A DNA stretch of 64,000 nt from NCBI GenBank assembly GCA_030445865.1, contig JASUSV010000004.1, positions 10,061 to 74,060 of the forward strand, in the 5' to 3' direction. Below the pieces are notes generated by a model. The model did no database searches. It was not told the DNA's origin and saw only the letters and a list, made by a program, of their open reading frames with translations. The stretch comes from Clostridia bacterium. GTDB taxonomy: Bacteria; Bacillota; DSM-521; Neomoorellales; Neomoorellaceae. Both the position numbers and the translations under genes were made by a program. This document shows, one piece after another, positions 41,798 through 56,947 of this stretch; positions within the stretch are counted from its first letter, which is position 1, and the number at the start of each line of letters is the position of its first letter.

Positions 41798-43705
41798 TTG
41801 CTATTGGATGCGCGGGTTCTCATGACCTCGCCTTATCCCGAAATTACGGAACTGGCAGGCGAAATAGCGCAGGAGATCGGGCTACCGGTCAAGGTGATAG
41901 ACGGGGCCTTAGACGAAGTTGTGCAAATAGTGCAGCAATATATGGCAGATTTCGGCGTCGAGGTTCTGGTCAGCCGCGGGGCTACGGCTGACCTTTTGCG
42001 GCAACACTTTTCTTCCCTGCCTTTAATCCGCATCGACCCGTCGGAGTTCGATATTATCGAAGCCCTGGGTAAGGCCAAAAGCGAGCGAGGGGTAACAGGT
42101 TTTTTGGGCTCCCGGTTTGACGAAGTGCACCGGCGGGTGGGGCATATCGCTGCCCTTATGGGATTAGACGTAGTGCCGTATCTCTACGGCAACTCGGCTG
42201 AGTTTCGCCTGCAGTTTGAAAGGGCACGGCGGGATGGCGTGCAGGTTTTAATTGGCGGGGGCCAGCGGGGAGCGGATATGGCCGCTGCCGCCGGCATAAA
42301 ACACATCCGCCTCTTGGTAGGGCGGGCGACGGTAAAGCAGGCTTTGGAGAGGGCCAAAGAAATTGCCGAGGCTTCCAGAAGGGAAAGGGAAAAAGCGGAA
42401 AAATTTCAAGCGGTAGTCGAATATTCTCACGAAGGGATTATTGCCTTGGATCAAAGCGGTGCTTTTACCATTTTTAACCCGGTAGCGGGGAAATATTTCG
42501 GTTTAACGGCTCATATGGTTCTGGGGAAGAAAATGTCGGAATTGCCTTTTATTAAGCCTTTAGCTGAACTGGTTGAAAGCGAAGCCCCTCTCCTGGGCCA
42601 CTTGCAGGAAACCAAAAAAGGCTTTATCGTAGTCAACAGGGTGCCTTTAATTGCCAATGGCGAAAAGCAAGGTTTGTTAATTACCTTCCAGGATGTCGGT
42701 AAAGTGCAACAATTGGAGCGCAAGATCCGGGGCGAGCTGCATCAGAGGCGCTTTCAGGCCAGATATTCTTTCCGGGATATTATCTATCAGAGCTCTGTTA
42801 TGGAACACGTCCTCGCCACGGCCCGGCGCTTCGCCGCCACCGATTCTACGGTGCTCATCAAGGGCGAGAGCGGTACTGGTAAAGAATTGCTGGCGCAGGG
42901 AATCCACCAGGCCCACCCGGAGCGGCGCGAGGGGCCCTTTGTGGCCATCAACTGCGCTGCCTTGACCGAAAGCCTGCTGGAGAGCGAGCTTTTCGGTTAC
43001 GAGGAAGGATCTTTTACTGGCGCGAAAAAAGGCGGCCGCGCAGGCCTCTTTGAGCTGGCCCACGGGGGAACCATTTTTCTCGACGAGATCGGCAAACTGC
43101 CCTTTAACCTCCAGGGACAGTTGCTGCGGGTGCTCCAGGAAAAAGAAATCCGGCGCGTAGGCGGCAATCAGCTCATCCCGGTCGATGTGCGGGTAGTGGC
43201 CGCCACCAACGAAGACCTGCGGGATCTGGTGCGCAAGGGTTCTTTCCGCGAAGATTTGTATTACCGCTTAAATGTGCTCACCCTTTACTTGCCGCCTTTG
43301 AGAGAGCGCTCCGAAGACATCCCCCTCTTGGCAGAAAACTTTTTGAATAAATTTAACCATAAGTACGCCAAAAAAATTAAAATTCCGCCCGCTTTTATGG
43401 GTTCATTAACCCGCTTAAAGTGGCCCGGCAACGTGCGGCAACTGGAGAATTTTATCGAACGCCTGGTCCTGGTTGCCGACGAAAACAACGTGGAAGTCGT
43501 CCTGAGGGAAATGCTGCGGCAAGAATTCGGCAACGAAGAGCACGGTCCAACTTTGGAGTTGCAGCCGCATATGAATTTAAGGGAAATGCAGCGGGAAATT
43601 GTCAAGAAGTATTTGCGCAGCGGGAAGATGACGCGCACCGAATTGGCGCAGAAACTAGGCATCAGCCGTACGACTCTCTGGAAGTTGTTGAAGGAAGAAG
43701 CTTAA
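41798..43705 (+). CDS. Sigma-54-dependent transcriptional activator, PrpR-like (PrpR_N sensor, PAS, AAA+, Fis-type HTH)
   Basis: The AAA+ domain shows Walker A GESGTGKE, the sigma-54 contact loop (GAFTGA-type) EGSFTGA and LFLDEIG. The C-terminal HTH LAQKLGISRTTLWKLLK is present. Confidence 0.88.
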   Translation: MLLDARVLMTSPYPEITELAGEIAQEIGLPVKVIDGALDEVVQIVQQYMADFGVEVLVSRGATADLLRQHFSSLPLIRIDPSEFDIIEALGKAKSERGVTGFLGSRFDEVHRRVGHIAALMGLDVVPYLYGNSAEFRLQFERARRDGVQVLIGGGQRGADMAAAAGIKHIRLLVGRATVKQALERAKEIAEASRREREKAEKFQAVVEYSHEGIIALDQSGAFTIFNPVAGKYFGLTAHMVLGKKMSELPFIKPLAELVESEAPLLGHLQETKKGFIVVNRVPLIANGEKQGLLITFQDVGKVQQLERKIRGELHQRRFQARYSFRDIIYQSSVMEHVLATARRFAATDSTVLIKGESGTGKELLAQGIHQAHPERREGPFVAINCAALTESLLESELFGYEEGSFTGAKKGGRAGLFELAHGGTIFLDEIGKLPFNLQGQLLRVLQEKEIRRVGGNQLIPVDVRVVAATNEDLRDLVRKGSFREDLYYRLNVLTLYLPPLRERSEDIPLLAENFLNKFNHKYAKKIKIPPAFMGSLTRLKWPGNVRQLENFIERLVLVADENNVEVVLREMLRQEFGNEEHGPTLELQPHMNLREMQREIVKKYLRSGKMTRTELAQKLGISRTTLWKLLKEEA

Positions 43706-43723
43706 GCTGGGTCTGTTCATTAT

Positions 43724-43743
43724 TTGAACTTATTGGAGTTCAA
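43724..43743. promoter_or_regulatory. Perfect 7-bp inverted repeat, candidate activator-binding site (UAS)
   Basis: TTGAACT-TATTGG-AGTTCAA lies about 130 bp upstream of the -24/-12 element. Confidence 0.4.
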
Positions 43744-43835
43744 AATTTTGGTCTTCGTTTAAAATATAAACATCTAACAGCCTTAAGTTTATTATTTTAA
43801 CAACAAGATTATCAAAACTTAGTGAAATTTTAAAC

Positions 43836-43860
43836 AAGCCTTTCTCTTAAAGGCTTTTTC
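43836..43860 (+). terminator. Intrinsic terminator after the activator gene
   Basis: AAGCCTTT-CTCTT-AAAGGCTT followed by a T-run. It abuts the sigma-54 promoter. Confidence 0.55.
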
Positions 43861-43864
43861 TTTT

Positions 43865-43880
43865 TGGCATACTTTTTGCT
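43865..43880 (+). promoter_or_regulatory. Sigma-54 (-24/-12) promoter
   Basis: TGGCAT-ACTTT-TTGCT has GG and GC exactly 12 nt apart, matching the TGGCAC-N5-TTGCW consensus. It lies directly downstream of a sigma-54 activator gene. Confidence 0.75.
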
Positions 43881-43929
43881 AAGGATCATGTTTGGCGGAT
43901 CCTCTTATAGTTTTAATAACCAGAGAGAG

Positions 43930-44796
43930 GTGGAGTCCTTGCTTCTGCGCAGCCTTTTATTCATACCGGGAAATAAAGAGAAAATCTTGCTCAAAACCTC
44001 TACGGTCAATGCCGACGCCGTCGTCTGGGATCTGGAAGACGCCGTTCCCCTCGCCGAAAAAGCCCTGGCCAGGCAGCTCATCCGTCAGCACCTTTCCGAT
44101 CTCGCTTCGCCAGCTCCTCTAGTTTACGTGCGGGCTAATGCTGTAACTACCGGACTGGTAGATGAAGATCTCCGGTATGTAGTGGGCCCTAATTTAACAG
44201 GTATTATGCTCCCCAAGGTTGAGACTGCCGACGAGGTGCGCTACGTCGCCAGGAGCCTGGTAACTTTAGAAAAAGAAAGCGGCATGGCCGGCGGCTCGGT
44301 AAAAATAATTGCCACTTTGGAGACAGCCCTGGGCGTATTACGGGCCTATGATATAGCCGCGGCTTCCGACCGGGTCGAAGCCCTGTGCCTGGGGGCCGAA
44401 GACTTCACCCGCGACCTGGGCACTTCCCGCAGCCGCGAAGGCAGTGAGCTGGCCTACGCTCGTGGGGCTATAGTTTTGGCTGCCGCCGCAGCCAGGGTAG
44501 CAGCTATCGATACCGTTTTTTCGGATTTAAACGACGAGGAGGGATTAGAAAAAGAATGCCACCTTGTTAGAGGCCTTGGCTTCGGCGGCAAGTGCGCCAT
44601 TCACCCCAGGCAGTTAGATATAATCAACCGGGCTTTTTCGCCCACAGAAGAGGAGGTGGCGTACGCCCGCCGGGTGGTGGCGGCTTTTGAAGAAGCCAGG
44701 GCCCAGAATCTAGGCGTTATCCTAGTGGACGGCAGGATGGTGGATAAACCCGTTGTGGAACGGGCGCAACGGATACTGGAACGCTTCGGCGGTTAG
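43930..44796 (+). CDS. CitE/HpcH-HpaI family acyl-CoA lyase (citryl/malyl/citramalyl-CoA lyase-like)
   Basis: RSLLFIPGN..DAVVWDLEDAV..GIMLPKVE..EDFTRDLG is present. The ORF is open from 43864, but the sigma-54 promoter occupies 43865-43880. The start is therefore placed at GTG 43930 or TTG 43939, downstream of the predicted transcription start. Confidence 0.8.
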   Translation: MESLLLRSLLFIPGNKEKILLKTSTVNADAVVWDLEDAVPLAEKALARQLIRQHLSDLASPAPLVYVRANAVTTGLVDEDLRYVVGPNLTGIMLPKVETADEVRYVARSLVTLEKESGMAGGSVKIIATLETALGVLRAYDIAAASDRVEALCLGAEDFTRDLGTSRSREGSELAYARGAIVLAAAAARVAAIDTVFSDLNDEEGLEKECHLVRGLGFGGKCAIHPRQLDIINRAFSPTEEEVAYARRVVAAFEEARAQNLGVILVDGRMVDKPVVERAQRILERFGG

Positions 44797-44808: not shown

Positions 44809-46023
44809 ATGGGCCGGATGCTGGAAAATCATACTAAGACTTTGCTTTATGAAAACGGCCTAGCGGTGCCACAGTTTAAAGTAGCCGCCTCGGTTGATGA
44901 GGTGCGGCAGGCGGCGGATGAACTGGGCGGTAAGGTTGTGCTTAAAGCCTTGGTGCCGGTAGGCAAGAAGGGCAAGGCCGGAGCGGTGAAATTTGCCGAC
45001 GGCGCGGAAGAAGCCGGCGAGGCGGCCGCCGGGCTTCTGGGAACGACCGTCCGCTTCTTCCCGGTAGAAAAAATCCTGGTAGAACAGAAGCTGGAAATCG
45101 AGCAGGAACTCTTTGTTTCCATCACTCTAGACAAAATGCGCCGCTGCCCGGTGGTGCTGGCTAGCACTGCCGGCGGTATGGATGTGGAAGAAATAGCGGC
45201 GCAGTACCCAGAAAAGATGCGGGTTATCCCCCTGGACCCTTTTGAGGGCCTGCCGGAATATAAGTGTCGGGAGATCTGGACCGAACTGGGTCTGAGCGGA
45301 GGGTTGCTGCGCGAGGCCGCTTCCTACCTCTACCGCCTTTACCAGGTATTTGCCCGCTACGAAGCGACCGTTTTAGAAATCAATCCCCTGGCGGTAACCC
45401 CCGAAGGCAAGGTGGTAGCGGCCGGGGCGTTGATGGCCGTAGACGATGCCGCCGTCTTCCGCCACCCCGAACTCAAGGACTACGTACAGCTGGGCAGCGA
45501 ACGCGCCTGGCGACCTCTGACAGAACTGGAAAAAGAGGTAGTGGCGGTCAACGAAGCTGACCCCTACCGTGGGACGGCCAGGTACACTGAAATGGAAGAC
45601 GGGGATATCGGCTTTATGTGCGGGGGTGGAGGAGGGAGCCTCATGGTTTTCGATACCCTCCTATCCTACGGCGGCAGGCCGGCCAATTATACCGAATTCG
45701 GCGGTAACCCGCCGGAGCGTAAGGTTTTCGGCCTGGTTAAGACCATCCTTTCCAAGCCGGGTGTTAAAGGGCTGCTGGTGGACGCCAATATTACCAACAA
45801 TACCCAGGTCGACCTGGTGGCCCAGGGGATCGTGCGCGCTTTGAAAGAAAAGGGTATTGACCCGCGGAAATTTCCGGTAGTAGTACGGCTGGCCGGGGTC
45901 AATGACGCCGAAGGCCGCAGGATTTTGGCTGAAGCCGGAGTGGAATATTACGGCGAGGAAATGAGCATGTCCCAGGCGGCCCGGCGCATGGTGGAGAAGA
46001 TGCGGGAAGCTTACGGCGGTTAA
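44809..46023 (+). CDS. ATP-grasp beta subunit of an acyl-CoA ligase of the succinyl-CoA synthetase/ATP-citrate lyase superfamily
   Basis: It has a SucC-like N-terminal ATP-grasp domain. The CoA-ligase part reads DIGFMCGGGGGSLMVFDT..ANYTEFGGNP, which looks closer to ACL/citryl-CoA synthetase-type than to canonical SucC. That comparison is from memory. Confidence 0.75.
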   Translation: MGRMLENHTKTLLYENGLAVPQFKVAASVDEVRQAADELGGKVVLKALVPVGKKGKAGAVKFADGAEEAGEAAAGLLGTTVRFFPVEKILVEQKLEIEQELFVSITLDKMRRCPVVLASTAGGMDVEEIAAQYPEKMRVIPLDPFEGLPEYKCREIWTELGLSGGLLREAASYLYRLYQVFARYEATVLEINPLAVTPEGKVVAAGALMAVDDAAVFRHPELKDYVQLGSERAWRPLTELEKEVVAVNEADPYRGTARYTEMEDGDIGFMCGGGGGSLMVFDTLLSYGGRPANYTEFGGNPPERKVFGLVKTILSKPGVKGLLVDANITNNTQVDLVAQGIVRALKEKGIDPRKFPVVVRLAGVNDAEGRRILAEAGVEYYGEEMSMSQAARRMVEKMREAYGG

Positions 46024-46051: not shown

Positions 46052-46957
46052 TTGGGCATTTTAATTGACGCCGGCACCAGAATTTTAATCCAGGGTATTA
46101 CCGGTCGCGAGGCTTCTATGGTCACCAGGCACATGCTGGACTACGGCACGCCGGTAGCTGCCGGCGTTACGCCGGGTAAAGGCGGTACGGAGGTGCACGG
46201 CGTCCCGGTCTACGATACCGTTAGGCAGGCCTGCCGGGAGCACGAAATAAACGCCGCCTTGATTTACGTTCCACCGGCTTTTGTTTATGATGCCGTGCTG
46301 GAAGCAGTGGCCAACGGCATTAACCTCATTGTGATCATTACCGAAAATATCCCTCAGCACGACGTGATGAAACTGCTGGCGGCTACCAAGAAGGCTGGGG
46401 CCAGAGTTATCGGCCCCAACACCACGGGTATCATCAATCCCAGGGCGAGGATGAAGATGGGCGCCATCGGCGGCGATAACGTAGAGCGCTGTTTCGTACC
46501 CGGCTGCGTGGGCGTAATCTCCCGGAGCGGCGGTATGACGGCGGAGACGGCCCACATGGTGAAACGGGCCGGGCTGGGGGTGAGCACGGCCATCGCCATC
46601 GGCGGTGACCCCATGATCGGCAGCCCGCCCAGGGAACTTTTGGAACTTTTTGAACAAGATCCCGAAACGCAGGCCGTGGTCATGTTCGGCGAACCGGGCA
46701 CCACTTTTGAGGAAGATGTGGCCGAACTGTTGGCCGCCAAAGGTTTTACCAAGCCGCTGATCGCCTATATAGCCGGCCGCTTTACCGAAGATATGCCGGA
46801 AGGTACGGTCTTCGGCCATGCCGGAGCCATTATCGAGGGAGGCAAGGGTAAACCTTCGACCAAGATGCGGCTTCTGCGTGAAGCCGGCGCCTATGTGGCC
46901 GAGCGGTATGACGACATAGTCGATTACTTGAAACAACTGGATTTACCCCAGAATTAA
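46052..46957 (+). CDS. Alpha subunit (CoA-binding, SucD-like) of the same ligase
   Basis: RILIQGITGREASMVTRHMLDYGT..GVTPGKGG is present, with the phosphohistidine loop region FGHAGAII. Confidence 0.82.
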   Translation: MGILIDAGTRILIQGITGREASMVTRHMLDYGTPVAAGVTPGKGGTEVHGVPVYDTVRQACREHEINAALIYVPPAFVYDAVLEAVANGINLIVIITENIPQHDVMKLLAATKKAGARVIGPNTTGIINPRARMKMGAIGGDNVERCFVPGCVGVISRSGGMTAETAHMVKRAGLGVSTAIAIGGDPMIGSPPRELLELFEQDPETQAVVMFGEPGTTFEEDVAELLAAKGFTKPLIAYIAGRFTEDMPEGTVFGHAGAIIEGGKGKPSTKMRLLREAGAYVAERYDDIVDYLKQLDLPQN

Positions 46958-47045
46958 CGTTCCCTGGTTTTGTCAGCGTGAATAACGGCGGGGCCAAAAA
47001 TTATTAGCCAGGTTGAGCGGTATCTCTTCTGGAGGAACAAATGCC

Positions 47046-47657: not shown

Positions 47658-47676
47658 CAGGAGAGGGGATCTAGTC

Positions 47677-49410: not shown

Positions 49411-49412
49411 GG

Positions 49413-51107: not shown

Positions 51108-51759
51108 AGAATACCGCTTCACGTTACCCGCAGAAGAACAGGAAGTGCGCCGGCTAAAAATAGGCGACATCGTGTACCTCACCGGCACCTGCTACACCAT
51201 GCGCGATATGGGCCACCGCCGGTCTATCGAAATTCTCCAGCAAGAAGAAGCTCTGCCCTTTAACCTGGCCAAAGGCGCCCTCTGGCACTGCGGCCCCATC
51301 GTGAAAAAAGAGGGGGAAAGCTGGCAGGTAGTTTCGGCAGGCTCTACCACCAGTTCCCGCTTCACACCGCTGGGAAGTGAATTGATCCGCCAGGTTAAAG
51401 TGCGCTTCACCATCGGTAAAGGCACCATGGGCCCGGAAGCCGTGGCCGCCATGCAAGAAATAGGCGCCTGCTACCTGAACTCCATCGGCGGCTGCGCCGC
51501 CCTCTACGCCGAGCAGATAAAAGCCGTCAAAACCGTCTTCTGGACCGACCTGGGGCTTCCCGAAGCCATCTGGGTGCTGGAAGTCGAAAACTTGGGGCCC
51601 CTGGTGGTAGGCATCGACAGCCACGGCCAGAGCCTTTTTGAGAACATTAAAAAAGACATGCAAAAAGCCTTGCAGGAAATTTACGCAGCCAGCCGCCTAG
51701 AAAAAGGATATAGCTACACTTACCTTCCCAGGCGAGTGCCGGGGAAACTGGATAGATAA
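51100..51759 (+). CDS. fumB: Class I Fe-S hydro-lyase beta subunit
   Basis: The family-typical C-terminal domain (LTGTCYTMRDMGH..GKGTMG) is present and its start overlaps the alpha subunit stop. Confidence 0.85.
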   Translation: MAKEYRFTLPAEEQEVRRLKIGDIVYLTGTCYTMRDMGHRRSIEILQQEEALPFNLAKGALWHCGPIVKKEGESWQVVSAGSTTSSRFTPLGSELIRQVKVRFTIGKGTMGPEAVAAMQEIGACYLNSIGGCAALYAEQIKAVKTVFWTDLGLPEAIWVLEVENLGPLVVGIDSHGQSLFENIKKDMQKALQEIYAASRLEKGYSYTYLPRRVPGKLDR

Positions 51760-51763: not shown

Positions 51764-52180
51764 TTGATTGTTCTGGAGGAAAAAACAGTTATGGAAAATT
51801 TAAATTTAAAAGAATGCGCTGCCCGCATTATTGGGGAACGGGTTAGCATCAGGAAATATCAACCAGTCAAAGTAAAGCGCGAGGACCTGCTGCAGGTGTT
51901 AGAGGCGGGGCGTCGTGCCCCTTCGGGGGAAAACGCACAGCCCTGGCGCTTTATAGTTGTTGAAGATGAAATAACCAAGAAAAAGTTAGGGCGCATTGCC
52001 CGCCAGGGAAGCGGCCGGCGCTTTGTCGGGGAGTTTGTGGCGGGCATTTTAGAAGAGCGGTTTAAGACGGTCACCGACCCGCAGAAAAAGCAACAATTGT
52101 ACCGTAATCTCATGTCTGGCGATGTTTCTGCCTTTATCGCCGAGGCCTCTCTTTCTGACCATATGGGCAGGTTGATATAG
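51764..52180 (+). pseudogene. Nitroreductase-family gene, truncated; decayed remainder likely continues to about 52400 in other frames
   Basis: The N-terminal part is family-like (RVSIRKYQPVKV..RAPSGENAQPWRFIVV), but the ORF stops at 138 aa. Downstream frames contain nitroreductase-like fragments (VDIGAA..). Confidence 0.5.
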
Positions 52181-52497
52181 CAGGCGGCAGCATTTTTGGT
52201 TCAGATAGAGATAATGCCTGGGGAAGGGTAGATATTGGAGCGGCCAGAAAGGATATGGGCGCAAGTAGTGGCGGAAGAGCGAGGCAGTCGCTGAAATAGA
52301 AGGCAGTGGCCCCTGTATGCTGGGAACAGCGCAGATATTGTGGCTCAAGGGTTTTAGCGAATTTAATTCGGAAGTATCGAAGCAGGTTTAGAGGGGGTGG
52401 TCTTGCAGGAAAATAGTCAACACACCACGCGAATTGCCTGTCAAAGATTAGGATTTTTAAAGTTAAATAAATATAATTTTTAGGAAAGGAGATTACT

Positions 52498-53586
52498 ATG
52501 CTATTTTCGAAAATTAGGTTTCTAGTTCCAATAATTTTAATTTCTTTCTTGCTCGCTGCCTGCGGTGGCGGCGGCGGGCAGAAGGGCCAGCCCCAGGCGG
52601 GCGGTAAGCCGGAAGAGAAAAAGCAGGAACAGGCGGCCAAAACTCAGCAGATCGTAGCCAAGTTCCCTCATGTTGTCGCCCCGGATACGCCCAAGGGGAA
52701 GGCGATTAGCCTCTTTGCCAAGCGGGTGGAAGAAAAGACCCAGGGGAAAATGAAGGTCGAAGTCTTCCCCTCTTCCCAGCTATACGGCGACGCCGAAGAA
52801 ATGGAGGCGTTGCTTGCCGGCAACTGCCATTTCATCGCCCCTTCTTCCACTAAAGTGGTGCAGTTGAACCCCAGCTTCCAGATTTTTGACGTGCCTTTCT
52901 TGTTCGATAGCGAGGAGGCGGTCAAGATCTTCTGGAACGATCCCAACGGCGGCCAGGCCATGCAAAAGAAACTGGAGCCAAAGGGCCTGATGGGCCTGGG
53001 CTTCCTGTGCAGCGGCTTTAAGCAACTTTTTAGTTCCAGGCGGCCTTTACTGACGCCGGAAGACTGCAAGGGGCTAAAATTCCGTGCGGCAGCAGGAGGC
53101 ATTCTTACCGAGCAGTTCCAGGCTTTAGGCGCTACCAGCGTTTCTATCCCGTTCGGCGAAGTTTATACTGCTCTGCAGCAGAAGACGGTAGACGGTTCGG
53201 AAAATAACCTGGCCAATATTTATACGCAGAAGTTTTATGAAGTTTGCCCTTATCTAACTATCACTAACCACGGCCGCTTCGATTACAGCATTATTACCAA
53301 TAAGAAATGGTTTGAAGGTCTGCCGGCGGACGTTCAAAACGCCGTTCGCGAGGCCGCCAGAGAAGCCCAGGAATTTTCCCAGCAGGAGCAGATCAGGCAA
53401 GACAATGAGTACTTAGAGAAAATTAAGCAGAGCGGGAAGGTGCAGGTTTTTGAACTTACTCCGGAACAGCGCGCGGCTTTCCGCAAGGCTGAAGAGGCCT
53501 ATTACCCCAAATGGGAAGAGCGCATCGGTAAGGATTTGTTTGACGCGGCCAGAGAAGCTAACGAGGCAGCCAAGCAGAAAAAATAA
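52498..53586 (+). CDS. dctP: TRAP transporter substrate-binding lipoprotein (DctP family)
   Basis: The lipobox LLAAC followed by a Gly-rich linker is present, together with a DctP-family body. Confidence 0.88.
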   Translation: MLFSKIRFLVPIILISFLLAACGGGGGQKGQPQAGGKPEEKKQEQAAKTQQIVAKFPHVVAPDTPKGKAISLFAKRVEEKTQGKMKVEVFPSSQLYGDAEEMEALLAGNCHFIAPSSTKVVQLNPSFQIFDVPFLFDSEEAVKIFWNDPNGGQAMQKKLEPKGLMGLGFLCSGFKQLFSSRRPLLTPEDCKGLKFRAAAGGILTEQFQALGATSVSIPFGEVYTALQQKTVDGSENNLANIYTQKFYEVCPYLTITNHGRFDYSIITNKKWFEGLPADVQNAVREAAREAQEFSQQEQIRQDNEYLEKIKQSGKVQVFELTPEQRAAFRKAEEAYYPKWEERIGKDLFDAAREANEAAKQKK

Positions 53587-53650
53587 AAAGGGGTATGGGG
53601 TGGGCAAAACCCACGCCCGCCCCCTTCATCCCAAAAGTTGAGGTGAAAAT

Positions 53651-54124
53651 ATGAACTGGCGGCAAATTTACGACCTGGTTGAAGATTATCTTACCGGTGT
53701 TCTTTTAATAACGGGCTTAGGTATCGTCCTAGCAGGAGTATTTATGCGTTACGTCCTTAACGCCCCGCTCTTTTGGGCTGACGAGATCGGCAATTATTTT
53801 GTCATCTGGGGGGCTCTGCTAGGGACGAGCGTGGCGTTGAGGGAAGATAAGCATATAAGGGTAAAGATTTTATATAACTTACTGCCGCTCAAGGCCCAGC
53901 GCTGGGTAAGCATCTTTTCCGAAGCTGTGGGGCTAGGTTTTTGCGTTTTCTTTACTATTGGCGGCTTCATCCTGGTCGGGAAATACTTGCAGATCGGCCA
54001 GGTATCCCTTAACAGCCAGACCCCTCTATGGATTCCTTATCTGATTGCCCCTATTACCGGAATGTTGTTTGGCTTGCGCTTTGCCGACAACTTGCTTCGC
54101 TTGTTATTTAGCAAACGTACTTAG
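53651..54124 (+). CDS. dctQ: TRAP transporter small permease (DctQ)
   Basis: It is a 157-aa four-TM protein located between dctP and dctM. Confidence 0.85.
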   Translation: MNWRQIYDLVEDYLTGVLLITGLGIVLAGVFMRYVLNAPLFWADEIGNYFVIWGALLGTSVALREDKHIRVKILYNLLPLKAQRWVSIFSEAVGLGFCVFFTIGGFILVGKYLQIGQVSLNSQTPLWIPYLIAPITGMLFGLRFADNLLRLLFSKRT

Positions 54125-54157
54125 ATTTATAAGGATGGCTAAAGGGGGCTAAAATAA

Positions 54158-55435
54158 TTGCTTACCGTTACGTTATTTTTAATTTTTATTTTCCTCTTTT
54201 TGCTTAACGTGCCTATAGCTATTTCTCTTGCCTTATCAACCGTAATAATCCTCTCATTGAGCGGGGATTTTAGCCTTTATATGGTCATGCAGAGAATGGT
54301 GGCCAGCCTGACCAACCCGGCGCTTATGGCCATCCCCGGCTTTGTCTTCGCCGGCGTTATCATGTCGCGGGGCGGGATTGCCAAGTATTTAATTGACGCG
54401 GCCAATGCCTGGCTTGGCCATTTAAAAGGCGGCCTTTCCATTGTTACCGTCTTGACCTGCATGATCTTTGCCGCCATCTGCGGATCCAGCCCGGCTACGG
54501 CAGCAGCCATAGGCTCGATAATGATACCTGGGATGGTGCGCTCCGGCTATGATAAGATTTATGCCATGGGCCTGGTAGCTGCTTCCGGTACTTTAGGCAT
54601 CCTTATACCTCCGAGCATACCCATGGTCCTTTACGGCGTAACCGCCGAGGAGTCCATCGGCCAGCTTTTCATGGCCGGGGTTATTCCCGGCATTATTTTG
54701 GGCTGCGTTTTAATCTTGACGGCTATAATTTATGCCCGCAAGCGCAACTACGGCGGGCTGCCAAAACAATCTAGCCGAGAGCGCTGGCTGGCGACGTTTA
54801 AGGCCCTCCCGGCCCTCTTTTTACCCTTCTTAATTTTAGGCTCCATATACTTGGGGGTCGCCACGCCGACGGAAGCGGCCATGATCGCCTCGCTTTACGC
54901 TATCCTGGTTTCCGCCTTTCTCTACCGGGAACTGCACCTGAGGGACATCCGGGATATATTGAAGGAAAGTGTTTCGACTACCTCCATGATTTACCTGATC
55001 ATCTCTGCGGCCATGGTCTTCGCCCTTTATTTAACTAATGAGCGCGTGCCCTGGATGGTTTCCGAATGGATTGCGGCCCGTAAAATTCCGGTTTGGATGT
55101 TTTTCTTCATTACCCAGCTGATGTTTTTTATCATGGGAACTTTTCTAGAAGCTGCTTCCATTATTTTGATTACCTTACCGATACTTTTACCCATTATGAA
55201 GGGGTTGGGTATCGACCCTATCCATTTTGCCGTAGTCATGACAGTAAATATGGAGCTGGCGCAGATAACCCCGCCCGTAGGCCTGAACCTTTTTGTGGTC
55301 TCAAGCATAGCAAAAGAACCCTTAGAAAAGGTTATTCTAGGGGTTCTACCTTTCATTATGATTATGATTGCCGTACTAATAGTGTTTGTTGCCCTGCCCC
55401 AACTTTCTTTATTCCTCCCCCAGCTCATGTACTAG
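54158..55435 (+). CDS. dctM: TRAP transporter large permease (DctM)
   Basis: It is a 425-aa polytopic protein with DctM-family sequence. Confidence 0.88.
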   Translation: MLTVTLFLIFIFLFLLNVPIAISLALSTVIILSLSGDFSLYMVMQRMVASLTNPALMAIPGFVFAGVIMSRGGIAKYLIDAANAWLGHLKGGLSIVTVLTCMIFAAICGSSPATAAAIGSIMIPGMVRSGYDKIYAMGLVAASGTLGILIPPSIPMVLYGVTAEESIGQLFMAGVIPGIILGCVLILTAIIYARKRNYGGLPKQSSRERWLATFKALPALFLPFLILGSIYLGVATPTEAAMIASLYAILVSAFLYRELHLRDIRDILKESVSTTSMIYLIISAAMVFALYLTNERVPWMVSEWIAARKIPVWMFFFITQLMFFIMGTFLEAASIILITLPILLPIMKGLGIDPIHFAVVMTVNMELAQITPPVGLNLFVVSSIAKEPLEKVILGVLPFIMIMIAVLIVFVALPQLSLFLPQLMY

Positions 55436-55603
55436 ATGATGGCAATCTATACCAGCAAGGCGCTCATGCCGCCCGGGCAGCACCAGCAGGAGGATGAAAA
55501 TGCAATGTTAGCTTCATTTTTAAGGTAGTACCCTGTGGCCGGCAGGACCGACCACCTGCGGCCCATGGAAACGGAAGGCGATATAGTTTAGGGGGGCTAA
55601 GAA

Positions 55604-56947
55604 ATGCAAGAAGCTATAGCCGATTTTATTTTAAGACCTCCCGGTTTCCCTGCGGAGGCCTTGGACCGGGCCAAGTTCCATATTATCGATACTATAGGCG
55701 TAATGCTGGCCGGCAGCCGGGATGAGGTAGGTAGGGCAATAAAAACCTACCTGGAGCAAATAGGTAGCGCCGGGAAGTCTACCGTGCTCGGCTGGGGCCT
55801 AAAAGCGCCCCCTCCCGAGGCGGTGCTGGCCAACGCTACCCTGGCCCACGCCCTGGATTACGACGACTCTTCCTGGCGGCTGATCGGCCACCCCAGCGCC
55901 GTGGTGTTGCCGGCGGCCCTGGCGGCAGCCGAGATGGTAGGCGCGTCAGGCGCTAAATTGCTGCGCGCCTACTTAATAGGTACCGAAATTTCCTGCAAAT
56001 TGGGAGTACTTGCCGAGCCCGAGCTTTACGAAAACGGCTGGCATGCAACCAGCATCGTGGGCGTGTTCGGCGCCACCTGCGCGTGCGCCTATTTGTTCGG
56101 CCTGGATAGGGAACAAATTATCCACGCCCTGGGCATGGCGGCCTCCTCAGCTTCCGGCCTGCGCCAGAACTTCGGCACCATGACCAAGCCGCTCCACGCC
56201 GGACTGGCGGCCCGGGGTGGCGTCACGGCGGCTTTGCTGGCCCTAAATGGTTTTACCGCCAGCCATGAGGCTTTATGCGGTAAGTGGGGGTTTTTTGCTA
56301 ATTTTGCCGGCAAAAAAGATGCCGACGCCGCCCAGCTCAATCTAGGTCAGCCCTGGGACATCCTGGAGCCGGGGTTTTCGGTTAAGCTCTACCCTTCCTG
56401 CGCGGCCAGCCACACGGCCATCGATGCCGTGCTTGAGCTTAAGAACGAATATGGCTTTACCGCCGGGGATGTTGTCAGGGTTGAAGTAGGGGGAGGGCCG
56501 GTAGGGCCGATGATGCTCTTCCACCGGCGACCGGCAAAAGGGACGGAGGGCAAGTTCTGCATGCCGTTCCTTATCTCTGTGGCTATTATAGAAGGCAGGG
56601 TGGGGCTCGATGCTTTCAGCGATGCTTGCGTTAACAATCCTGCCGTCCAGAGCTTGATGGAAAAGGTTGAGTTCGGCGTTGATCCTCAATTTGTGAGCCG
56701 GTCCATAGACGACGCCCCTGCGCTGGTGAAGGTGCACTTGCGGGACGGGCGGGAGTTGAGCAGGCTAGTCGAGCAGCCTAGGGGGAGCCCGACCGAACCG
56801 CTGGGCCGGGAGGATTTTATCGCCAAGTACCGCGACTGCGCGGAGAGGGTTTTGCCGGCGGAAAAAGTGGAAAGTTCCCTGGGGCTCATACTCAATCTGG
56901 AGGAAGTAAATGATCTGGGCACTTTGATCGGAGAATTATGCCTTTAA
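55604..56947 (+). CDS. MmgE/PrpD family protein (2-methylcitrate dehydratase superfamily; specificity unknown)
   Basis: The length is 447 aa and PrpD-family blocks are present (HALDYDD, GWH, KPLHAG, YPSCAASH). Confidence 0.82.
   Translation: MQEAIADFILRPPGFPAEALDRAKFHIIDTIGVMLAGSRDEVGRAIKTYLEQIGSAGKSTVLGWGLKAPPPEAVLANATLAHALDYDDSSWRLIGHPSAVVLPAALAAAEMVGASGAKLLRAYLIGTEISCKLGVLAEPELYENGWHATSIVGVFGATCACAYLFGLDREQIIHALGMAASSASGLRQNFGTMTKPLHAGLAARGGVTAALLALNGFTASHEALCGKWGFFANFAGKKDADAAQLNLGQPWDILEPGFSVKLYPSCAASHTAIDAVLELKNEYGFTAGDVVRVEVGGGPVGPMMLFHRRPAKGTEGKFCMPFLISVAIIEGRVGLDAFSDACVNNPAVQSLMEKVEFGVDPQFVSRSIDDAPALVKVHLRDGRELSRLVEQPRGSPTEPLGREDFIAKYRDCAERVLPAEKVESSLGLILNLEEVNDLGTLIGELCL

What the first reader, a model, noticed from the sequence alone, without database searches (positions are those of the whole stretch)
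41798..56947. Sigma-54-controlled 13-kb cluster encoding a closed dicarboxylate-to-acyl-CoA-cleavage route plus TRAP uptake and a PrpD-family enzyme: candidate uncharacterised pathway
Seen, in gene order: PrpR-like activator; sigma-54 promoter; CitE-like acyl-CoA lyase; two-subunit ATP-dependent CoA ligase of the SCS/ACL superfamily; sdhC, sdhA and sdhB; class I Fe-S hydratase alpha and beta; a decayed nitroreductase; TRAP DctPQM; an MmgE/PrpD protein.

Established enzyme chemistry lets these steps be chained: dicarboxylate to enoate (Sdh/Frd type), to hydroxy-acid (class I fumarases also hydrate mesaconate), to hydroxyacyl-CoA (thiokinase), to acetyl-CoA plus a 2-oxo acid (CitE family).

Inference, possible overall routes:
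- Succinate to fumarate, malate and malyl-CoA, giving acetyl-CoA plus glyoxylate.
- The methyl-branched version: methylsuccinate to mesaconate, citramalate and citramalyl-CoA, giving acetyl-CoA plus pyruvate.
- The same enzymes running in reverse, with fumarate reductase as the sink.

PrpR-type control, the TRAP importer and a PrpD homolog (a family that includes methylcitrate and cis-aconitate-acting enzymes) point to an imported C4-C6 di- or tricarboxylate. Co-localisation of a full membrane-bound Sdh/Frd with a thiokinase and lyase pair under sigma-54 control is unusual.
Basis: inference. Interest (0 to 1): 0.7.

Follow-up and report, generated by a model that had tools for sequence, protein, structure and literature searches.

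The report
Natural free-acid methylsuccinate/mesaconate breakdown operon
This 15-kb operon most likely lets an anaerobic Clostridia bacterium import and break down methyl-branched C5 dicarboxylic acids (methylsuccinate, mesaconate) to acetyl-CoA and pyruvate. It would do so with a specialised second succinate dehydrogenase and an undescribed ATP-dependent citramalate-CoA ligase, a route so far published only as an engineered, "new-to-nature" pathway.

Summary
The gene set is not a chance neighbourhood. The ligase plus CitE-like lyase recur with Sdh/Frd-type, FumAB-type, PrpD-like, TRAP and PrpR-type genes in dozens of species from several phyla.

- **SdhA residue.** All 42 cluster-linked SdhAs, from two lineages, have Leu, Ala or Val where 14 canonical SdhA/FrdA have Phe (E. 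coli F119). F119L is the mutation selected in the laboratory for methylsuccinate oxidation.
- **PrpD-like protein.** It carries the epimerase-type catalytic set, like the characterised methylsuccinate isomerase, and co-occurs with the Sdh genes.
- **Transporter.** The binding protein resembles C4-dicarboxylate DctPs.

Proposed route: methylsuccinate → mesaconate → (S)-citramalate → citramalyl-CoA → acetyl-CoA + pyruvate. No enzyme was assayed. The substituent, the direction of flux and co-transcription of the TRAP and PrpD genes remain inferences. I rate it a new variant of a known kind, interest about 0.7.

The parts
41798..43705 (+). Sigma-54-dependent activator with a PrpR_N sensor domain, PAS, an AAA+ domain (Walker A GESGTGK, GSFTGA loop) and a C-terminal HTH. 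It is not the orthologous PrpR.
   Evidence: Pfam. TIGR02329 scores 418 bits against a cut-off of 499. Motifs. PrpR-type genes lie beside the cluster in 20 of 54 fully flanked loci.
43723..43744 (.). Perfect palindrome TTTGAACT-N6-AGTTCAAA about 120-140 bp upstream of the promoter. It is a candidate activator binding site, unverified.
   Evidence: The sequence is not conserved in relatives.
43833..43859 (+). Terminator-like hairpin followed by a T-run, downstream of the activator gene.
43865..43880 (+). Sigma-54 promoter, TGGCAT-ACTTT-TTGCT (-24/-12 elements).
   Evidence: Only exact match in the window, 0.09 expected. The same exact consensus lies directly upstream of the first cluster gene in 17 related loci.
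43939..44796 (+). CitE/HpcH-family acyl-CoA lyase, proposed (S)-citramalyl-CoA lyase (285 aa). The mechanical ORF starts at 43864 and overlaps the promoter.
   Evidence: PF03328. Bit scores: CitE 288, RipC/Ccl 188, malyl-CoA lyase 69, all below cut-offs. PDB: 1sgj, then CLYBL 5vxc. Start site. Lies within the flanks scanned (up to 10 kb either side of the ligase gene) in 47 of 54 loci.
44809..46023 (+). Large (beta-like) subunit of an ADP-forming acid-CoA ligase with a citryl-CoA-synthetase-type acid-binding domain. Proposed citramalate-CoA ligase.
   Evidence: The C-terminal domain matches Hydrogenobacter CCS at 1e-24 against SCS at 4e-17, and shares the GGGGS, GGNPP, ILSKPG and NNT motifs. 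It scores below the SucC and MtkA cut-offs.
46052..46957 (+). Small (alpha-like) subunit of the ligase, with CoA-binding domain and GHAGA phosphohistidine motif (His256).
47013..47657 (+). sdhC, dihaem cytochrome b558-type membrane anchor. The likely start is 47046.
   Evidence: TIGR02046 scores 118 against a cut-off of 96. Gene call.
47677..49410 (+). sdhA flavoprotein with all canonical catalytic residues, but Ala (RRAGG) where canonical enzymes have Phe (E. coli SdhA F119). Proposed methylsuccinate:quinone oxidoreductase subunit.
   Evidence: PRK08641 scores 972 against a cut-off of 855. Residues. F119-equivalent survey.
49413..50168 (+). sdhB iron-sulfur subunit.
   Evidence: NF006391 scores 420 against a cut-off of 244.
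50199..51107 (+). Class I Fe-S hydratase alpha subunit. Proposed mesaconase (mesaconate -> (S)-citramalate).
   Evidence: PF05681. NF004885 scores 290 against a cut-off of 276. Three invariant Cys at positions 65, 185 and 273. 87% identical to the homolog in the L004 citE-ligBA-fumAB cluster.
51091..51759 (+). Class I Fe-S hydratase beta subunit.
   Evidence: PF05683. TIGR00723 scores 209 against a cut-off of 145.
51764..52180 (+). Truncated nitroreductase remnant, probably non-functional.
   Evidence: Matches residues 11-118 of the 216-aa L004 homolog at 59% identity, with no remainder in any frame.
52498..53586 (+). TRAP solute-binding protein DctP, of the C4-dicarboxylate type.
   Evidence: Best PDB matches are C4-dicarboxylate DctPs (4o94, 4ovs, 9dsy, 9dtl, 9ht3) at 1e-83 to 1e-75.
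53651..54124 (+). TRAP small membrane subunit DctQ.
54158..55435 (+). TRAP large membrane subunit DctM.
55604..56947 (+). MmgE/PrpD-family protein of the IDS-epimerase/IRG1 branch. Proposed (S)-(R)-methylsuccinate epimerase.
   Evidence: Residues H82, D85, H96, Y142, H147, K195 and K261 are present. Co-occurs with Sdh-type flavoproteins in 32 of 34 loci. Precedent in PMC12290011.

Best explanation
The block 41.8-56.9 kb is a sigma-54/PrpR-type-controlled catabolic operon for methyl-branched C5 dicarboxylates. It works on the free acids.

Proposed steps (all inferred; nothing was assayed):
1. The DctPQM TRAP system imports methylsuccinate and/or mesaconate.
2. The PrpD-like protein interconverts (R)- and (S)-methylsuccinate, so that both enantiomers can be used.
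3. A dedicated membrane-bound SdhCAB oxidises methylsuccinate to mesaconate with menaquinone. Its substrate pocket has Ala in place of the canonical Phe.
4. The two-subunit class I Fe-S hydratase adds water to give (S)-citramalate.
5. A two-subunit ADP-forming ligase with a citryl-CoA-synthetase-type acid site makes (S)-citramalyl-CoA.
6. The CitE-like lyase cleaves it to acetyl-CoA + pyruvate.

The design is modular across genomes. Lyase + ligase form the universal core. The hydratase, the Sdh + epimerase pair, or glutamate mutase + methylaspartase are alternative feeder modules. In a fermenting host the Sdh could also run as a mesaconate reductase. The direction of flux is not settled.
For: **Shown by computation**

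1. *Conserved module.* In 54 species-representative loci with at least 8 kb on both sides, the ligase gene is accompanied by citE in 47, an Sdh/Frd-type flavoprotein in 41, a PrpD-like gene in 34, TRAP in 30, fumA in 27 and prpR in 20. Gene orders are shuffled.
2. *Methylaspartate context.* ligBA + citE lie directly beside glmS-mutL-glmE-mal in 8 loci. These come from Planctomycetota, Halanaerobiaceae, Thermotogota, Bipolaricaulota and Desulfobacterota, and are scattered over the ligase tree. L067 also has fused fumAB and TRAP. This is the position citramalate lyase occupies in the textbook pathway (PMC4682846).
3. *SdhA residue.* At the E. coli SdhA F119 position, 42 of 42 cluster-linked SdhAs in two independent lineages carry L, A or V. 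All 11 canonical SdhA/FrdA carry F, including B. subtilis housekeeping SdhA at 65% identity (Fisher p = 1e-11, with a phylogeny caveat).
4. *Prospective test.* Of 4 unseen non-Phe homologs, 2 are in the cluster. One is in a genome that holds the rest of the cluster on another contig. One lone flavoprotein is not in such a cluster. Of 3 Phe-type homologs, all are stand-alone housekeeping sdhCAB operons.
5. *Ligase.* The acid-binding domain is CCS-like, not SCS-like.
6. *Lyase.* It is closer to CitE and Ccl than to malyl-CoA lyase.
7. *PrpD-like protein.* It has the full epimerase-type residue set, including the second-base Tyr. It co-occurs with Sdh-type genes (32 of 34 loci against 9 of 20, p = 9e-5). 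It is absent from all 8 methylaspartate loci.
8. *DctP.* It resembles C4-dicarboxylate binders.
9. *Promoter.* The sigma-54 promoter is conserved in 17 loci.

**From the literature**

- SdhA F119L arose under selection for methylsuccinate use and doubles catalytic efficiency (bioRxiv 10.64898/2026.01.16.699985).
- An MmgE/PrpD protein is an (S)-(R)-methylsuccinate isomerase acting on the free acid (PMC12290011).
- Class I fumarases hydrate mesaconate to (S)-citramalate (PMC4682846).
Against: - No enzyme activity, transcript or growth phenotype is available.
- Ligase and lyase score below every curated family cut-off, so specificity is inferred from context alone.
- Their nearest characterised relatives act on citrate or citryl thioesters.
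- The window's own SdhA clade has Ala rather than the Leu seen in most clusters and in the laboratory mutant. This could mean a bulkier substituent than methyl.
- The methylaspartate-linked ligases are only 53-59% identical to the window's.
- Characterised Msi enzymes are almost all from Pseudomonadota and always sit beside a methylsuccinyl-CoA dehydrogenase. Clade membership of the window protein was not tested.
- Gaps of 317 and 168 nt precede dctP and the PrpD-like gene. No sigma-54 site lies in them, so co-regulation is unproven.
- The F119-equivalent statistics are inflated by shared ancestry within each lineage.
Confidence: 0.68

Rival explanations
1. The same enzyme logic applies, but to another 2-substituted succinate. 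One example is tricarballylate -> trans-aconitate -> citrate -> citryl-CoA -> acetyl-CoA + oxaloacetate. Another is an ethyl- or hydroxymethyl-succinate. The enlarged Sdh pocket would accommodate a bigger substituent.
For: - The ligase acid-binding domain is most like citryl-CoA synthetase.
- The lyase's best family hit is true CitE.
- The window clade has Ala, smaller than the Leu of other clusters.
- The PrpD-like protein belongs to a branch whose other members bind aconitate or iminodisuccinate.
- CitA/DpiA-type sensors and CitMHS carriers occur in relatives.
Against: - DctP is closest to C4-dicarboxylate binders.
- Tricarballylate has no stereocentre that would need an epimerase.
- Aerobic Brevibacillus and Cytobacillus carriers could send citrate straight into the TCA cycle, without needing a ligase and lyase.
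- The methylaspartate context points to citramalate.
Confidence: 0.12
2. C4 route: succinate -> fumarate -> malate -> malyl-CoA -> acetyl-CoA + glyoxylate, or its reverse for glyoxylate assimilation. The ligase would be a malate thiokinase and the lyase a malyl-CoA lyase.
For: - SdhA keeps every canonical succinate/fumarate residue.
- The hydratase alpha subunit passes the fumarate hydratase cut-off.
- DctP is of the C4-dicarboxylate type.
- All these enzyme families are promiscuous between C4 and methyl-C5 substrates (PMC4682846).
Against: - The ligase scores 235 bits against a 604 cut-off for malate-CoA ligase. The lyase scores 69 bits for malyl-CoA lyase.
- The universal loss of the pocket Phe in cluster Sdh enzymes is unexplained if succinate is the substrate.
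- Carboxydocella keeps a separate Phe-type Sdh.
- An epimerase has no role in this route.
- No glyoxylate-handling gene is in the cluster.
Confidence: 0.07
3. Citrate fermentation. TRAP imports citrate. The CCS-like ligase plus the CitE-like lyase act as a two-step ATP-citrate lyase. Oxaloacetate is then reduced via malate (Mdh encoded elsewhere), the fumarase and the Sdh acting as fumarate reductase, giving succinate as in E. coli citrate fermentation.
For: - NCBI names the MAG protein 'citryl-CoA synthetase large subunit'.
- The ligase has CCS-like motifs.
- The lyase's best family hit is CitE.
- The host is probably an anaerobe (sporulating Clostridia MAG).
Against: - No mdh was found among the cluster genes or the flanking ORFs that were scanned; the window was not annotated in full.
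- The same cluster occurs in aerobic bacilli.
- The pocket Phe replacement, the epimerase-type PrpD and the methylaspartate linkage are all unexplained.
- DctP is not tricarboxylate-like.
Confidence: 0.07
4. The sdh, fum and ligase genes are ordinary housekeeping TCA-branch genes (succinyl-CoA synthetase, Sdh, fumarase) that happen to lie near a transporter and a lyase.
For: - PGAP-style models would name SdhA, SdhB and FumA as the standard enzymes.
- Sdh, fumarase and SCS genes are clustered in some anaerobes (from my own knowledge of the Pelotomaculum mmc cluster).
Against: - The ligase is below the SucC and SucD cut-offs and lacks SCS acid-site motifs.
- It is partnered with citE in 47 of 54 loci.
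- Phe-type housekeeping sdhCAB operons exist separately in Carboxydocella, and 3 of 3 Phe-type operons checked lie in unrelated contexts.
- The operon sits behind a conserved sigma-54 promoter.
Confidence: 0.03

Closest known systems
Itaconate/methylsuccinate degradation cluster of Pseudomonas aeruginosa and Cupriavidus necator (Ict, Ich, Ccl, Mcd, Msi; Gonner et al. 2025, PMC12290011)
   Same: [quoted passage not shown]
- Same use of an MmgE/PrpD-family epimerase on free methylsuccinate.
- Same CitE/HpcH-family lyase as the last step.
   Different: - That route activates the acid first, with a CoA-transferase. It then dehydrogenates and hydrates the CoA esters with an acyl-CoA dehydrogenase and an enoyl-CoA hydratase.
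- Here dehydrogenation (membrane Sdh) and hydration (class I Fe-S hydratase) act on free acids. CoA is added last, by an ATP-dependent ligase.
- The taxa differ: Pseudomonadota there, mainly Bacillota, Desulfobacterota and Acidobacteriota here.
Engineered 'CoA-independent methylsuccinate module' in E. coli (SdhA F119L -> FumA -> citramalate lyase; bioRxiv 10.64898/2026.01.16.699985)
   Same: - Identical first two steps and logic.
- The natural cluster-linked SdhAs carry Leu, Ala or Val at the very position (F119) that was selected in that work.
   Different: - The engineered module ends with the ACP-type citramalate lyase, giving acetate + pyruvate.
- The natural cluster uses ligase + lyase, giving acetyl-CoA.
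- The natural cluster also has an epimerase, a transporter and sigma-54 control.
Methylaspartate pathway of glutamate fermentation (GlmSE, Mal, MesAB, CitDEF citramalate lyase; Clostridium tetanomorphum; PMC4682846)
   Same: - A two-subunit class I fumarase-type mesaconase is followed by citramalate cleavage.
- In 8 related loci the ligase + lyase sit in the glm-mal operon.
   Different: - The window has no glutamate mutase or methylaspartase.
- Cleavage uses a CCS-like ligase plus a stand-alone CitE-like lyase, not the ACP-dependent CitDEF complex.
Citryl-CoA synthetase / citryl-CoA lyase of Hydrogenobacter thermophilus (CcsAB + Ccl; PDB 6HXQ)
   Same: - A two-subunit SCS-like ligase with the same acid-binding motifs.
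- A two-step, ATP-dependent cleavage of a 2-hydroxy-2-substituted succinate.
   Different: - The partner lyase here is CitE/HpcH-type, not of the citrate-synthase family.
- The context is catabolic with a transporter, not the reductive TCA cycle.
- The overall E-value against CCS (2e-58) is no better than against Thermus SCS (4e-63).
Bacillus subtilis-type succinate:menaquinone oxidoreductase SdhCAB
   Same: - Same three-subunit, dihaem b558 architecture.
- 65% SdhA identity.
- All catalytic residues conserved.
   Different: - The pocket Phe of the R-x-F-G-G motif is replaced by Ala here and by Leu in most relatives.
- The genes are embedded in a catabolic operon.
- In Carboxydocella it is an extra copy beside a Phe-type Sdh.

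Membership tests
Succinyl-CoA synthetase (SucCD) | Scores above the NCBIfam equivalog cut-offs for SucC and SucD | tested here: not met
   Beta subunit 286 bits against a cut-off of 370. Alpha subunit 296 bits against 336.
Succinyl-CoA synthetase (SucCD) | SCS-type acid-binding loops in the beta C-terminal domain (NGAGLAM, GGGAT, FGGIVRCD) | tested here: not met
   The window has GGGGGS, GGNPP and NITNNT, as in CCS.
Succinyl-CoA synthetase superfamily (ADP-forming acid-CoA ligases) | ATP-grasp beta subunit plus CoA-binding alpha subunit with the GHAGA phosphohistidine | tested here: met
   Pfam. GHAGA with His256.
Citryl-CoA synthetase (CcsAB) | CCS/ACL-type citrate-binding domain | tested here: met
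   PF16114 hit. The C-terminal domain's best PDB match is 6hxq_B at 1e-24.
Citryl-CoA synthetase (CcsAB) | Partner lyase of the citrate-synthase family, and a reductive TCA context | tested here: not met
   The partner is HpcH/CitE-type. The context is a TRAP-linked catabolic operon.
Citryl-CoA synthetase (CcsAB) | Activity with citrate | not testable with these tools
   Needs an enzyme assay.
Malate-CoA ligase (MtkAB) | NCBIfam NF010647 cut-off | tested here: not met
   235 bits against a cut-off of 604.
Citrate lyase beta subunit (CitE proper) | TIGR01588 cut-off, and presence of CitD (ACP) and CitF partners | tested here: not met
   288 bits against a cut-off of 443. No CitD or CitF among the cluster genes.
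(S)-Citramalyl-CoA lyase (Ccl/RipC/CLYBL) | HpcH/CitE fold | tested here: met
   PF03328 at 3.5e-57. CLYBL 5vxc at 2e-41 and RipC 3qll at 5e-35.
(S)-Citramalyl-CoA lyase (Ccl/RipC/CLYBL) | NCBIfam RipC_Ccl equivalog cut-off | tested here: not met
   188 bits against a cut-off of 375. Not an ortholog of RipC.
(S)-Citramalyl-CoA lyase (Ccl/RipC/CLYBL) | Genomic association with enzymes that make citramalate or citramalyl-CoA | tested here: met
   Adjacent to mesaconase-type hydratases, and in 8 loci to glutamate mutase and methylaspartase.
(S)-(R)-Methylsuccinate isomerase (Msi, MmgE/PrpD family) | MmgE/PrpD fold with the carboxylate-binding and catalytic set His, Asp/Glu, His, Tyr, His, Lys, Lys | tested here: met
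   H82, D85, H96, Y142, H147, K195 and K261, compared with the residues listed in PMC12290011.
(S)-(R)-Methylsuccinate isomerase (Msi, MmgE/PrpD family) | Located next to a methylsuccinyl-CoA dehydrogenase, as always found by Gonner et al. | tested here: not met
   No acyl-CoA dehydrogenase is present. It co-occurs instead with Sdh-type methylsuccinate-dehydrogenase candidates in 32 of 34 loci.
(S)-(R)-Methylsuccinate isomerase (Msi, MmgE/PrpD family) | Falls in the Msi clade, or passes the authors' HMM | not tested
The closest solved relatives are B. subtilis 'IRG1' and IDS epimerase.
cis-Aconitate decarboxylase (CAD/IRG1) | The eight CAD active-site residues (list recalled from my own knowledge of the human CAD structure paper) | tested here: not met
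   H277 is Cys and Y318 is Phe. The epimerase-type Tyr is present where human CAD has Met.
2-Methylcitrate dehydratase (PrpD) | NCBIfam PrpD cut-offs | tested here: not met
   64 bits against a cut-off of 575, and 56 bits against 458.
Class I (Fe-S) fumarase / mesaconase, two-subunit type | Fumerase and Fumerase_C domains, and conserved Cys ligands | tested here: met
   Cys65, Cys185 and Cys273 are invariant or nearly so in 31 homologs. The beta subunit is below one equivalog cut-off (223 against 269) but above the subfamily cut-off (209 against 145).
Succinate:quinone oxidoreductase type B (SdhCAB) | The three subunits pass curated cut-offs, with covalent-FAD His and the catalytic His/Arg set | tested here: met
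   Residue mapping against E. coli FrdA (residue list from my own knowledge).
Succinate:quinone oxidoreductase type B (SdhCAB) | Phe in the R-x-F-G-G substrate-pocket motif (E. coli SdhA F119) | tested here: not met
   The window has Ala. 42 of 42 cluster-linked enzymes are non-Phe, against 14 of 14 canonical enzymes with Phe (11).
Sigma-54-dependent PrpR (propionate regulator) | PrpR_N + AAA+ with a GAFTGA-type loop + HTH | tested here: met
   (loop is GSFTGA).
Sigma-54-dependent PrpR (propionate regulator) | TIGR02329 / PRK15424 equivalog cut-offs | tested here: not met
   418 bits against a cut-off of 499, and 390 against 703. Same architecture, different regulon.
TRAP transporter DctPQM | The three components pass family cut-offs | tested here: met

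The most novel reading that the evidence does not exclude
The CCS-like ligase plus stand-alone CitE-like lyase form a widespread, previously unrecognised ATP-dependent cleavage system for 2-hydroxy-2-substituted succinates, found in at least 269 species representatives. If it also accepts citrate, it would be a third kind of ATP-dependent citrate cleavage, alongside ACL and CCS/CCL. It could operate in Bacillota, Acidobacteriota and Chloroflexota, where only the ligase + lyase pair is present. It would also be an evolutionary intermediate between succinyl-CoA synthetase and ATP-citrate lyase.
Probability: 0.1. Interest if true: 0.85.

Novelty: new variant of a known kind. Interest (0 to 1): 0.7.

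Why it matters
If the model is right, it matters in five ways.

1. **A natural version of an engineered pathway.** A free-acid methylsuccinate route published in 2026 as an engineered, new-to-nature pathway would already exist in nature. It would come with an adapted dehydrogenase, a transporter, an epimerase and a regulator. These are ready-made parts for synthetic CO2-fixation cycles that pass through methylsuccinate.

2. **Two enzyme activities with no described representative.** These are an ATP-dependent citramalate-CoA ligase of the CCS/ACL lineage and a quinone-linked methylsuccinate dehydrogenase.

3. **A gap in glutamate fermentation.** It would explain how Thermotogota, Bipolaricaulota, Halanaerobiaceae and others complete the methylaspartate pathway without the ACP-type citramalate lyase.

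4. **An anaerobic sink for methylsuccinate.** Gut and soil anaerobes form this compound by reducing itaconate. Only an aerobic CoA-ester route in Pseudomonadota is known for its breakdown.

5. **A one-residue annotation marker.** The residue in the R-x-F-G-G motif (Phe against Leu or Ala) separates these enzymes from housekeeping Sdh enzymes that annotation pipelines currently name identically.

Tried and rejected
- **PrpD-like protein as cis-aconitate decarboxylase or 2-methylcitrate dehydratase.** Rejected on active-site residues and family scores.
- **Tricarballylate or citrate as substrate.** Considered seriously because the ligase and lyase resemble CCS and CitE. Down-weighted after the DctP comparison, the methylaspartate contexts and the argument from aerobic hosts.
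- **Literature searches.** Searches for the cluster, for 'citramalyl-CoA synthetase' or 'citramalate-CoA ligase', and for citryl-CoA synthetase with CitE found no description.
- **The rTCA survey paper (PMC13147460).** It mentions only the classical CCS/CCL.
- **Plasmid collection.** It holds no close ligase homolog; the best hits are about 35% identical SCS/Mtk. It gave no identifiable Msi for a direct comparison.
- **The palindrome upstream of the promoter.** It is not conserved in relatives, so it stays a candidate only.
- **Extra sigma-54 sites before dctP or the PrpD-like gene.** None found, even allowing 2 mismatches.
- **Terminator scan.** Not informative: 34 sites found against 24 expected.
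- **Adjacency to the pyruvate carboxylase-like genes.** Initially read as functional. It is probably just the conserved spoIIIA-acc-asp23-nusB backbone into which the cluster is inserted.
- **Mesaconase genes next to the glm-mal-ligase operons.** The neighbouring ORFs turned out to be unrelated housekeeping genes.

Full report
**1. Observation**

Pfam and NCBIfam scans give fifteen genes on the + strand.

| Coordinates | Gene |
|---|---|
| 41798-43705 | PrpR_N/PAS/sigma-54 AAA+/HTH activator |
| 43864-44796 | HpcH/CitE-type lyase (ORF as listed) |
| 44809-46023 | ATP-grasp ligase subunit with a 'Citrate_bind' domain |
| 46052-46957 | CoA-binding ligase subunit |
| 47013-50168 | sdhC (b558), sdhA, sdhB |
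| 50199-51759 | Two-subunit class I Fe-S hydratase |
| 51764-52180 | Short nitroreductase ORF |
| 52498-55435 | dctP, dctQ, dctM |
| 55604-56947 | MmgE/PrpD protein |

- **Promoter.** TGGCATACTTTTTGCT at 43865-43880 is the only exact match to TGGCAY-N5-TTGCW in the window (0.09 expected).
- **Lyase start.** Because the promoter overlaps the listed lyase ORF, the real start is most likely TTG 43939, behind GGTGGAG. This gives 285 aa, like the homologs.
- **Activator.** It has Walker A GESGTGK and the sigma-54 contact loop as GSFTGA.
- **Nitroreductase.** It covers only residues 11-118 of a 216-aa homolog, with nothing further in any frame. 'Decayed' is the right description.
- **Source.** NCBI holds these proteins from a Clostridia MAG and names the ligase subunit 'citryl-CoA synthetase large subunit'.

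**2. It is a conserved module, not a chance neighbourhood**

A scan of one genome per GTDB species with an alignment of the ligase large subunit found 269 relatives, of which 80 loci were fetched. I ran tblastn with every window protein against them. In the 54 loci with at least 8 kb on both sides, the ligase gene is accompanied by:

| Partner gene | Loci (of 54) |
|---|---|
| Ligase small subunit | 54 |
| CitE-like lyase | 47 |
| Sdh/Frd-type flavoprotein | 41 |
| PrpD-like gene | 34 |
| TRAP transporter | 30 |
| FumA-like hydratase | 27 |
| PrpR-type activator | 20 |

- Gene order differs between Brevibacillus, Cytobacillus/Bacillus, Desulfovirgula/Desulfofundulus, Desulfosporosinus, Paradesulfitobacterium, Carboxydocella and delta-proteobacterial MAGs. 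Shuffled order with conserved content is the signature of functional linkage.
- An exact sigma-54 consensus lies just upstream of the first cluster gene in 17 of these loci.
- Relatives add CitA/DcuS-type sensors with DpiA-type regulators, DASS/CitMHS carriers and GntR/FCD regulators. All are typical of di- and tricarboxylate catabolism.
- The closest cluster, in an Armatimonadota MAG (L004), is citE-ligBA-fumAB-nitroreductase without sdh. Its FumA is 87% identical to the window's.

**3. What the ligase and lyase are**

- Both fall below every curated equivalog cut-off: SucC, SucD, MtkA, CitE, RipC and malyl-CoA lyase.
- Over its whole length the ligase is equidistant from Thermus SCS and Hydrogenobacter citryl-CoA synthetase.
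- Its C-terminal acid-binding domain is clearly CCS-like (1e-24 against 4e-17). It shares GGGGS, GGNPP, ILSKPG and NNT where SCS has NGAGLAM, GGGAT and FGGIVRCD.
- The lyase is nearest to true CitE (288 bits) and then to Ccl/RipC (188 bits). It is far from malyl-CoA lyase (69 bits). CLYBL is its second-best solved relative.
- The pair is therefore built for a 2-hydroxy-2-substituted succinate, such as citrate or citramalate, rather than for succinate.

**4. Clue one: the methylaspartate pathway**

[quoted passage not shown] An example order is citE-ligB-ligA-glmS-mutL-glmE-mal. The loci are:
- L060, Sedimentisphaerales;
- L074, Halanaerobiaceae;
- L047 and L057, Thermotogota;
- L048 and L062, Acetothermia/Bipolaricaulota;
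- L031 and L067, Syntrophales.

L067 also carries a fused fumAB directly upstream of ligBA, plus a TRAP system. The 8 loci are scattered over the ligase tree. One of them sits inside the clade whose other members have sdh and prpD genes.

In the textbook pathway, mesaconate made by methylaspartase is hydrated by a two-subunit class I fumarase-type mesaconase. The product, (S)-citramalate, is then cleaved by the ACP-type citramalate lyase CitDEF. The only other described route uses a CoA-transferase plus Ccl (Kronen and Berg 2015, PMC4682846).

Here ligase + lyase occupy that slot. Full-text searches for a citramalate-CoA ligase or citramalyl-CoA synthetase found no description.

**5. Clue two: the Sdh pocket residue**

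A 2026 preprint (bioRxiv 10.64898/2026.01.16.699985) built a 'novel, CoA-independent methylsuccinate module' in E. coli: Sdh -> FumA -> citramalate lyase. It reports three things:
- native Sdh has basal methylsuccinate activity;
- the variant has about two-fold higher catalytic efficiency.

I verified on the MG1655 gene that F119 is the Phe of the R-x-F-G-G motif.

| Group | Motif or residue | Count |
|---|---|---|
| Window SdhA | RRAGG (Ala) | 1 |
| Cluster-linked type-B orthologs (65-72% identity) | RRLGG (Leu) | 24 |
| One further type-B copy | RGVGG (Val) | 1 |
| Independent SdhA lineage (34-38% identity; Desulfovirgula, Desulfofundulus, Desulfobaccales) | R(S/A)LGG (Leu) | 16 |
| Canonical enzymes | Phe | 11 of 11 |

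In total, 42 of 42 cluster-linked enzymes are non-Phe. The 11 canonical enzymes are:
- B. subtilis housekeeping SdhA in its uvrC-lysC-sdhCAB-gerE context, which is as close to the window protein (65%) as the cluster-linked ones;
- S. aureus, another Bacillus and a Paenibacillus;
- Streptomyces, Prevotella, Xanthomonas, Rhizobium and Legionella;
- E. coli SdhA and FrdA.

Fisher p is 1.3e-11. Shared ancestry inflates this, but two lineages converge on the same change.

*Prospective test.* Among the 120 closest database homologs of the window SdhA, 93 have Phe, 13 Ala, 13 Leu and 1 Gly.
- An Ala-type protein lies in citE-ligBA-sdhCAB-fumAB.
- A Leu-type protein lies in TRAP-prpR-DUF1847-prpD-sdhCAB-citE-ligBA.
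- Another Leu-type protein belongs to a genome (PH28_bin88) that carries citE-ligBA-prpD-TRAP on a second contig.
- The single Gly-type protein is a lone flavoprotein elsewhere.
- Three Phe-type proteins are stand-alone sdhCAB operons in housekeeping contexts.

Carboxydocella has both a Leu-type cluster Sdh and a Phe-type Sdh. There, the cluster enzyme is a dedicated extra copy.

All other catalytic residues of the window SdhA are canonical. The residue list is from my own knowledge of E. coli FrdA.

**6. Clue three: the PrpD-like protein**

- Its solved relatives are B. subtilis 'IRG1' and iminodisuccinate epimerase (about 1e-69). Next come cis-aconitate decarboxylases (1e-42). True PrpD is far off (1e-11).
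- Gonner et al. 2025 (PMC12290011) showed that the MmgE/PrpD protein of the pseudomonad itaconate cluster is an (S)-(R)-methylsuccinate isomerase. It acts on the free acid by a two-base His/Tyr mechanism.
- The window protein has the whole set: H82, D85, H96, Y142, H147, K195 and K261. This includes the second-base Tyr, which is Met in human CAD. It lacks two CAD residues (H277 is Cys, Y318 is Phe).
- Across genomes it tracks the Sdh-type flavoprotein: 32 of 34 loci against 9 of 20, p = 9e-5. It is absent from all 8 methylaspartate loci, where mesaconate is made directly and no methylsuccinate step is needed.
- I could not test whether it falls in the authors' Msi clade. Their Msi genes always sit beside a methylsuccinyl-CoA dehydrogenase, which is absent here.

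**7. Other constraints**

- DctP is closest to solved C4-dicarboxylate binding proteins (1e-83 to 1e-75). This argues against a tricarboxylate.
- The hydratase alpha subunit has three conserved cysteines. It is the same two-subunit type as the classical clostridial mesaconase.
- IrdA, the itaconate reductase that makes methylsuccinate in gut anaerobes, belongs to the same flavoprotein family, PF00890. An environmental source of the substrate under anoxia is therefore known.

**8. Model**

TRAP uptake is followed by:
1. epimerisation of methylsuccinate;
2. Sdh-type oxidation to mesaconate;
3. hydration to (S)-citramalate;
4. ATP-dependent thioesterification;
5. cleavage to acetyl-CoA + pyruvate.

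*Shown:* gene content, conservation, promoter, residue patterns and contexts.

*Inferred:* every substrate assignment, the direction of the Sdh step, and co-transcription of dctPQM and the PrpD-like gene. Gaps of 317 and 168 nt precede these genes, and no sigma-54 site lies in them.

*Caveat specific to this window:* its SdhA clade has Ala rather than Leu. This would leave even more room, so a larger substituent cannot be excluded.

**9. Comparison with what is known, and novelty**

The end products and the last enzyme type match the known itaconate, mesaconate and methylsuccinate routes. The epimerase has a characterised precedent. The first two steps match an engineered module.

Three things are new:
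- the combination as a natural, regulated, widely distributed operon working on free acids;
- a CCS-lineage ligase as the activating enzyme;
- a specialised membrane Sdh, recognisable by one residue.

I therefore classify it as a new variant of a known kind. It is of real interest to people working on C5-dicarboxylate metabolism, glutamate fermentation and synthetic carbon fixation, but it still rests entirely on inference.

**10. Context in the window**

The cluster lies between a biotin carboxylase gene (40125-41468) and amaP/asp23-nusB (58064-59290). It is downstream of spoIIIA genes (32.5-36 kb). This is the usual Bacillota backbone order. GC is 0.50-0.51 at both ends of the cluster, against about 0.57 elsewhere. 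The cluster therefore looks like an insertion. Its adjacency to the pyruvate carboxylase-like genes is probably positional rather than functional.

Noticed in passing
L010, L011, L013, L014, L017, L021, L022, L026, L034, L042-L045, L049, L056, L063, L068, L079, L084/L085, L099, L100: A DUF1847 protein sits next to the cluster-linked sdh genes in more than 17 loci, often with an FrhB/FdhB-like Fe-S flavoprotein. Its role is unknown; it might be an alternative electron-transfer partner. The window has no copy.
   Followed up: partly
L053 (Neomoorella carbonis) 2759-14519; L050: Here citE-ligBA sit with a glycyl-radical enzyme (PFL2/HypD-like, 796 aa), its activase, a TRAP system and an aldehyde:ferredoxin oxidoreductase. 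This context differs from all the others and suggests a further feeder route into the ligase and lyase pair.
   Followed up: partly
L004 7794-9023; L015, L018, L019, L025: A short protein (409-437 aa) of the isopropylmalate/citramalate/homocitrate-synthase family lies directly beside citE in five loci, including the cluster most similar to the window's. It scores below all curated cut-offs and its function is unknown.
   Followed up: partly
L060 13096-14037; L074 4158-5069; L081 153-1037; L054 48-842: A conserved protein of about 300 aa lies next to citE in four loci. Its only family hit is a weak TsaE-like P-loop match.
   Followed up: no
L066 16669-18228; L063 8287-9879 and homologs in Cytobacillus/Bacillus and Desulfosporosinus loci: These clusters carry a second, soluble-type PF00890 flavoprotein (about 520 aa, closest to TfrA/NadB models) in addition to sdhCAB. 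The itaconate reductase IrdA belongs to the same family, so this protein might reduce or oxidise an isomeric C5 enoate.
   Followed up: partly
window 38297-41468: A 607-aa carboxyltransferase + biotinyl protein and a 447-aa biotin carboxylase lie immediately upstream of the activator, in two-subunit pyruvate carboxylase-like architecture. The same pair lies near the cluster in L013. This is probably backbone synteny rather than part of the operon.
   Followed up: partly
window 41798-56947 versus flanks: The cluster interrupts the conserved Bacillota order spoIIIA ... biotin carboxylase | amaP/asp23 - nusB. GC is 0.50-0.51 at 42-44 kb and 52-56 kb, against about 0.57 elsewhere. This suggests acquisition by insertion. 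No integrase or transposase was found among the ORFs scanned; the window was not annotated in full.
   Followed up: partly
window 51764-52180 and 52181-52497: The nitroreductase is cut after residue 118 of 216. It is followed by 317 nt of non-coding DNA before dctP. The full-length gene follows fumAB in the Armatimonadota cluster L004, so the deletion probably occurred after the gene order was established.
   Followed up: yes
window 10774-23349: This stretch holds a PAS-GGDEF-HD-GYP signalling protein and a type IV pilus gene set (two T2SSE ATPases, a T2SSF platform protein and a PilX_N protein). These are followed by a TldD/PmbA pair at 26.7-29.5 kb. They appear unrelated to the finding.
   Followed up: no
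L098 (Selenomonadales bacterium) 10001-11734: A lone SdhA-like flavoprotein is 73% identical to the window's, with Gly at the F119-equivalent position and no sdhB or sdhC. It lies beside a DASS carrier and a Crp-type regulator. L021 has a similar lone copy with Val. These may be soluble enoate reductases derived from the cluster Sdh.
   Followed up: no
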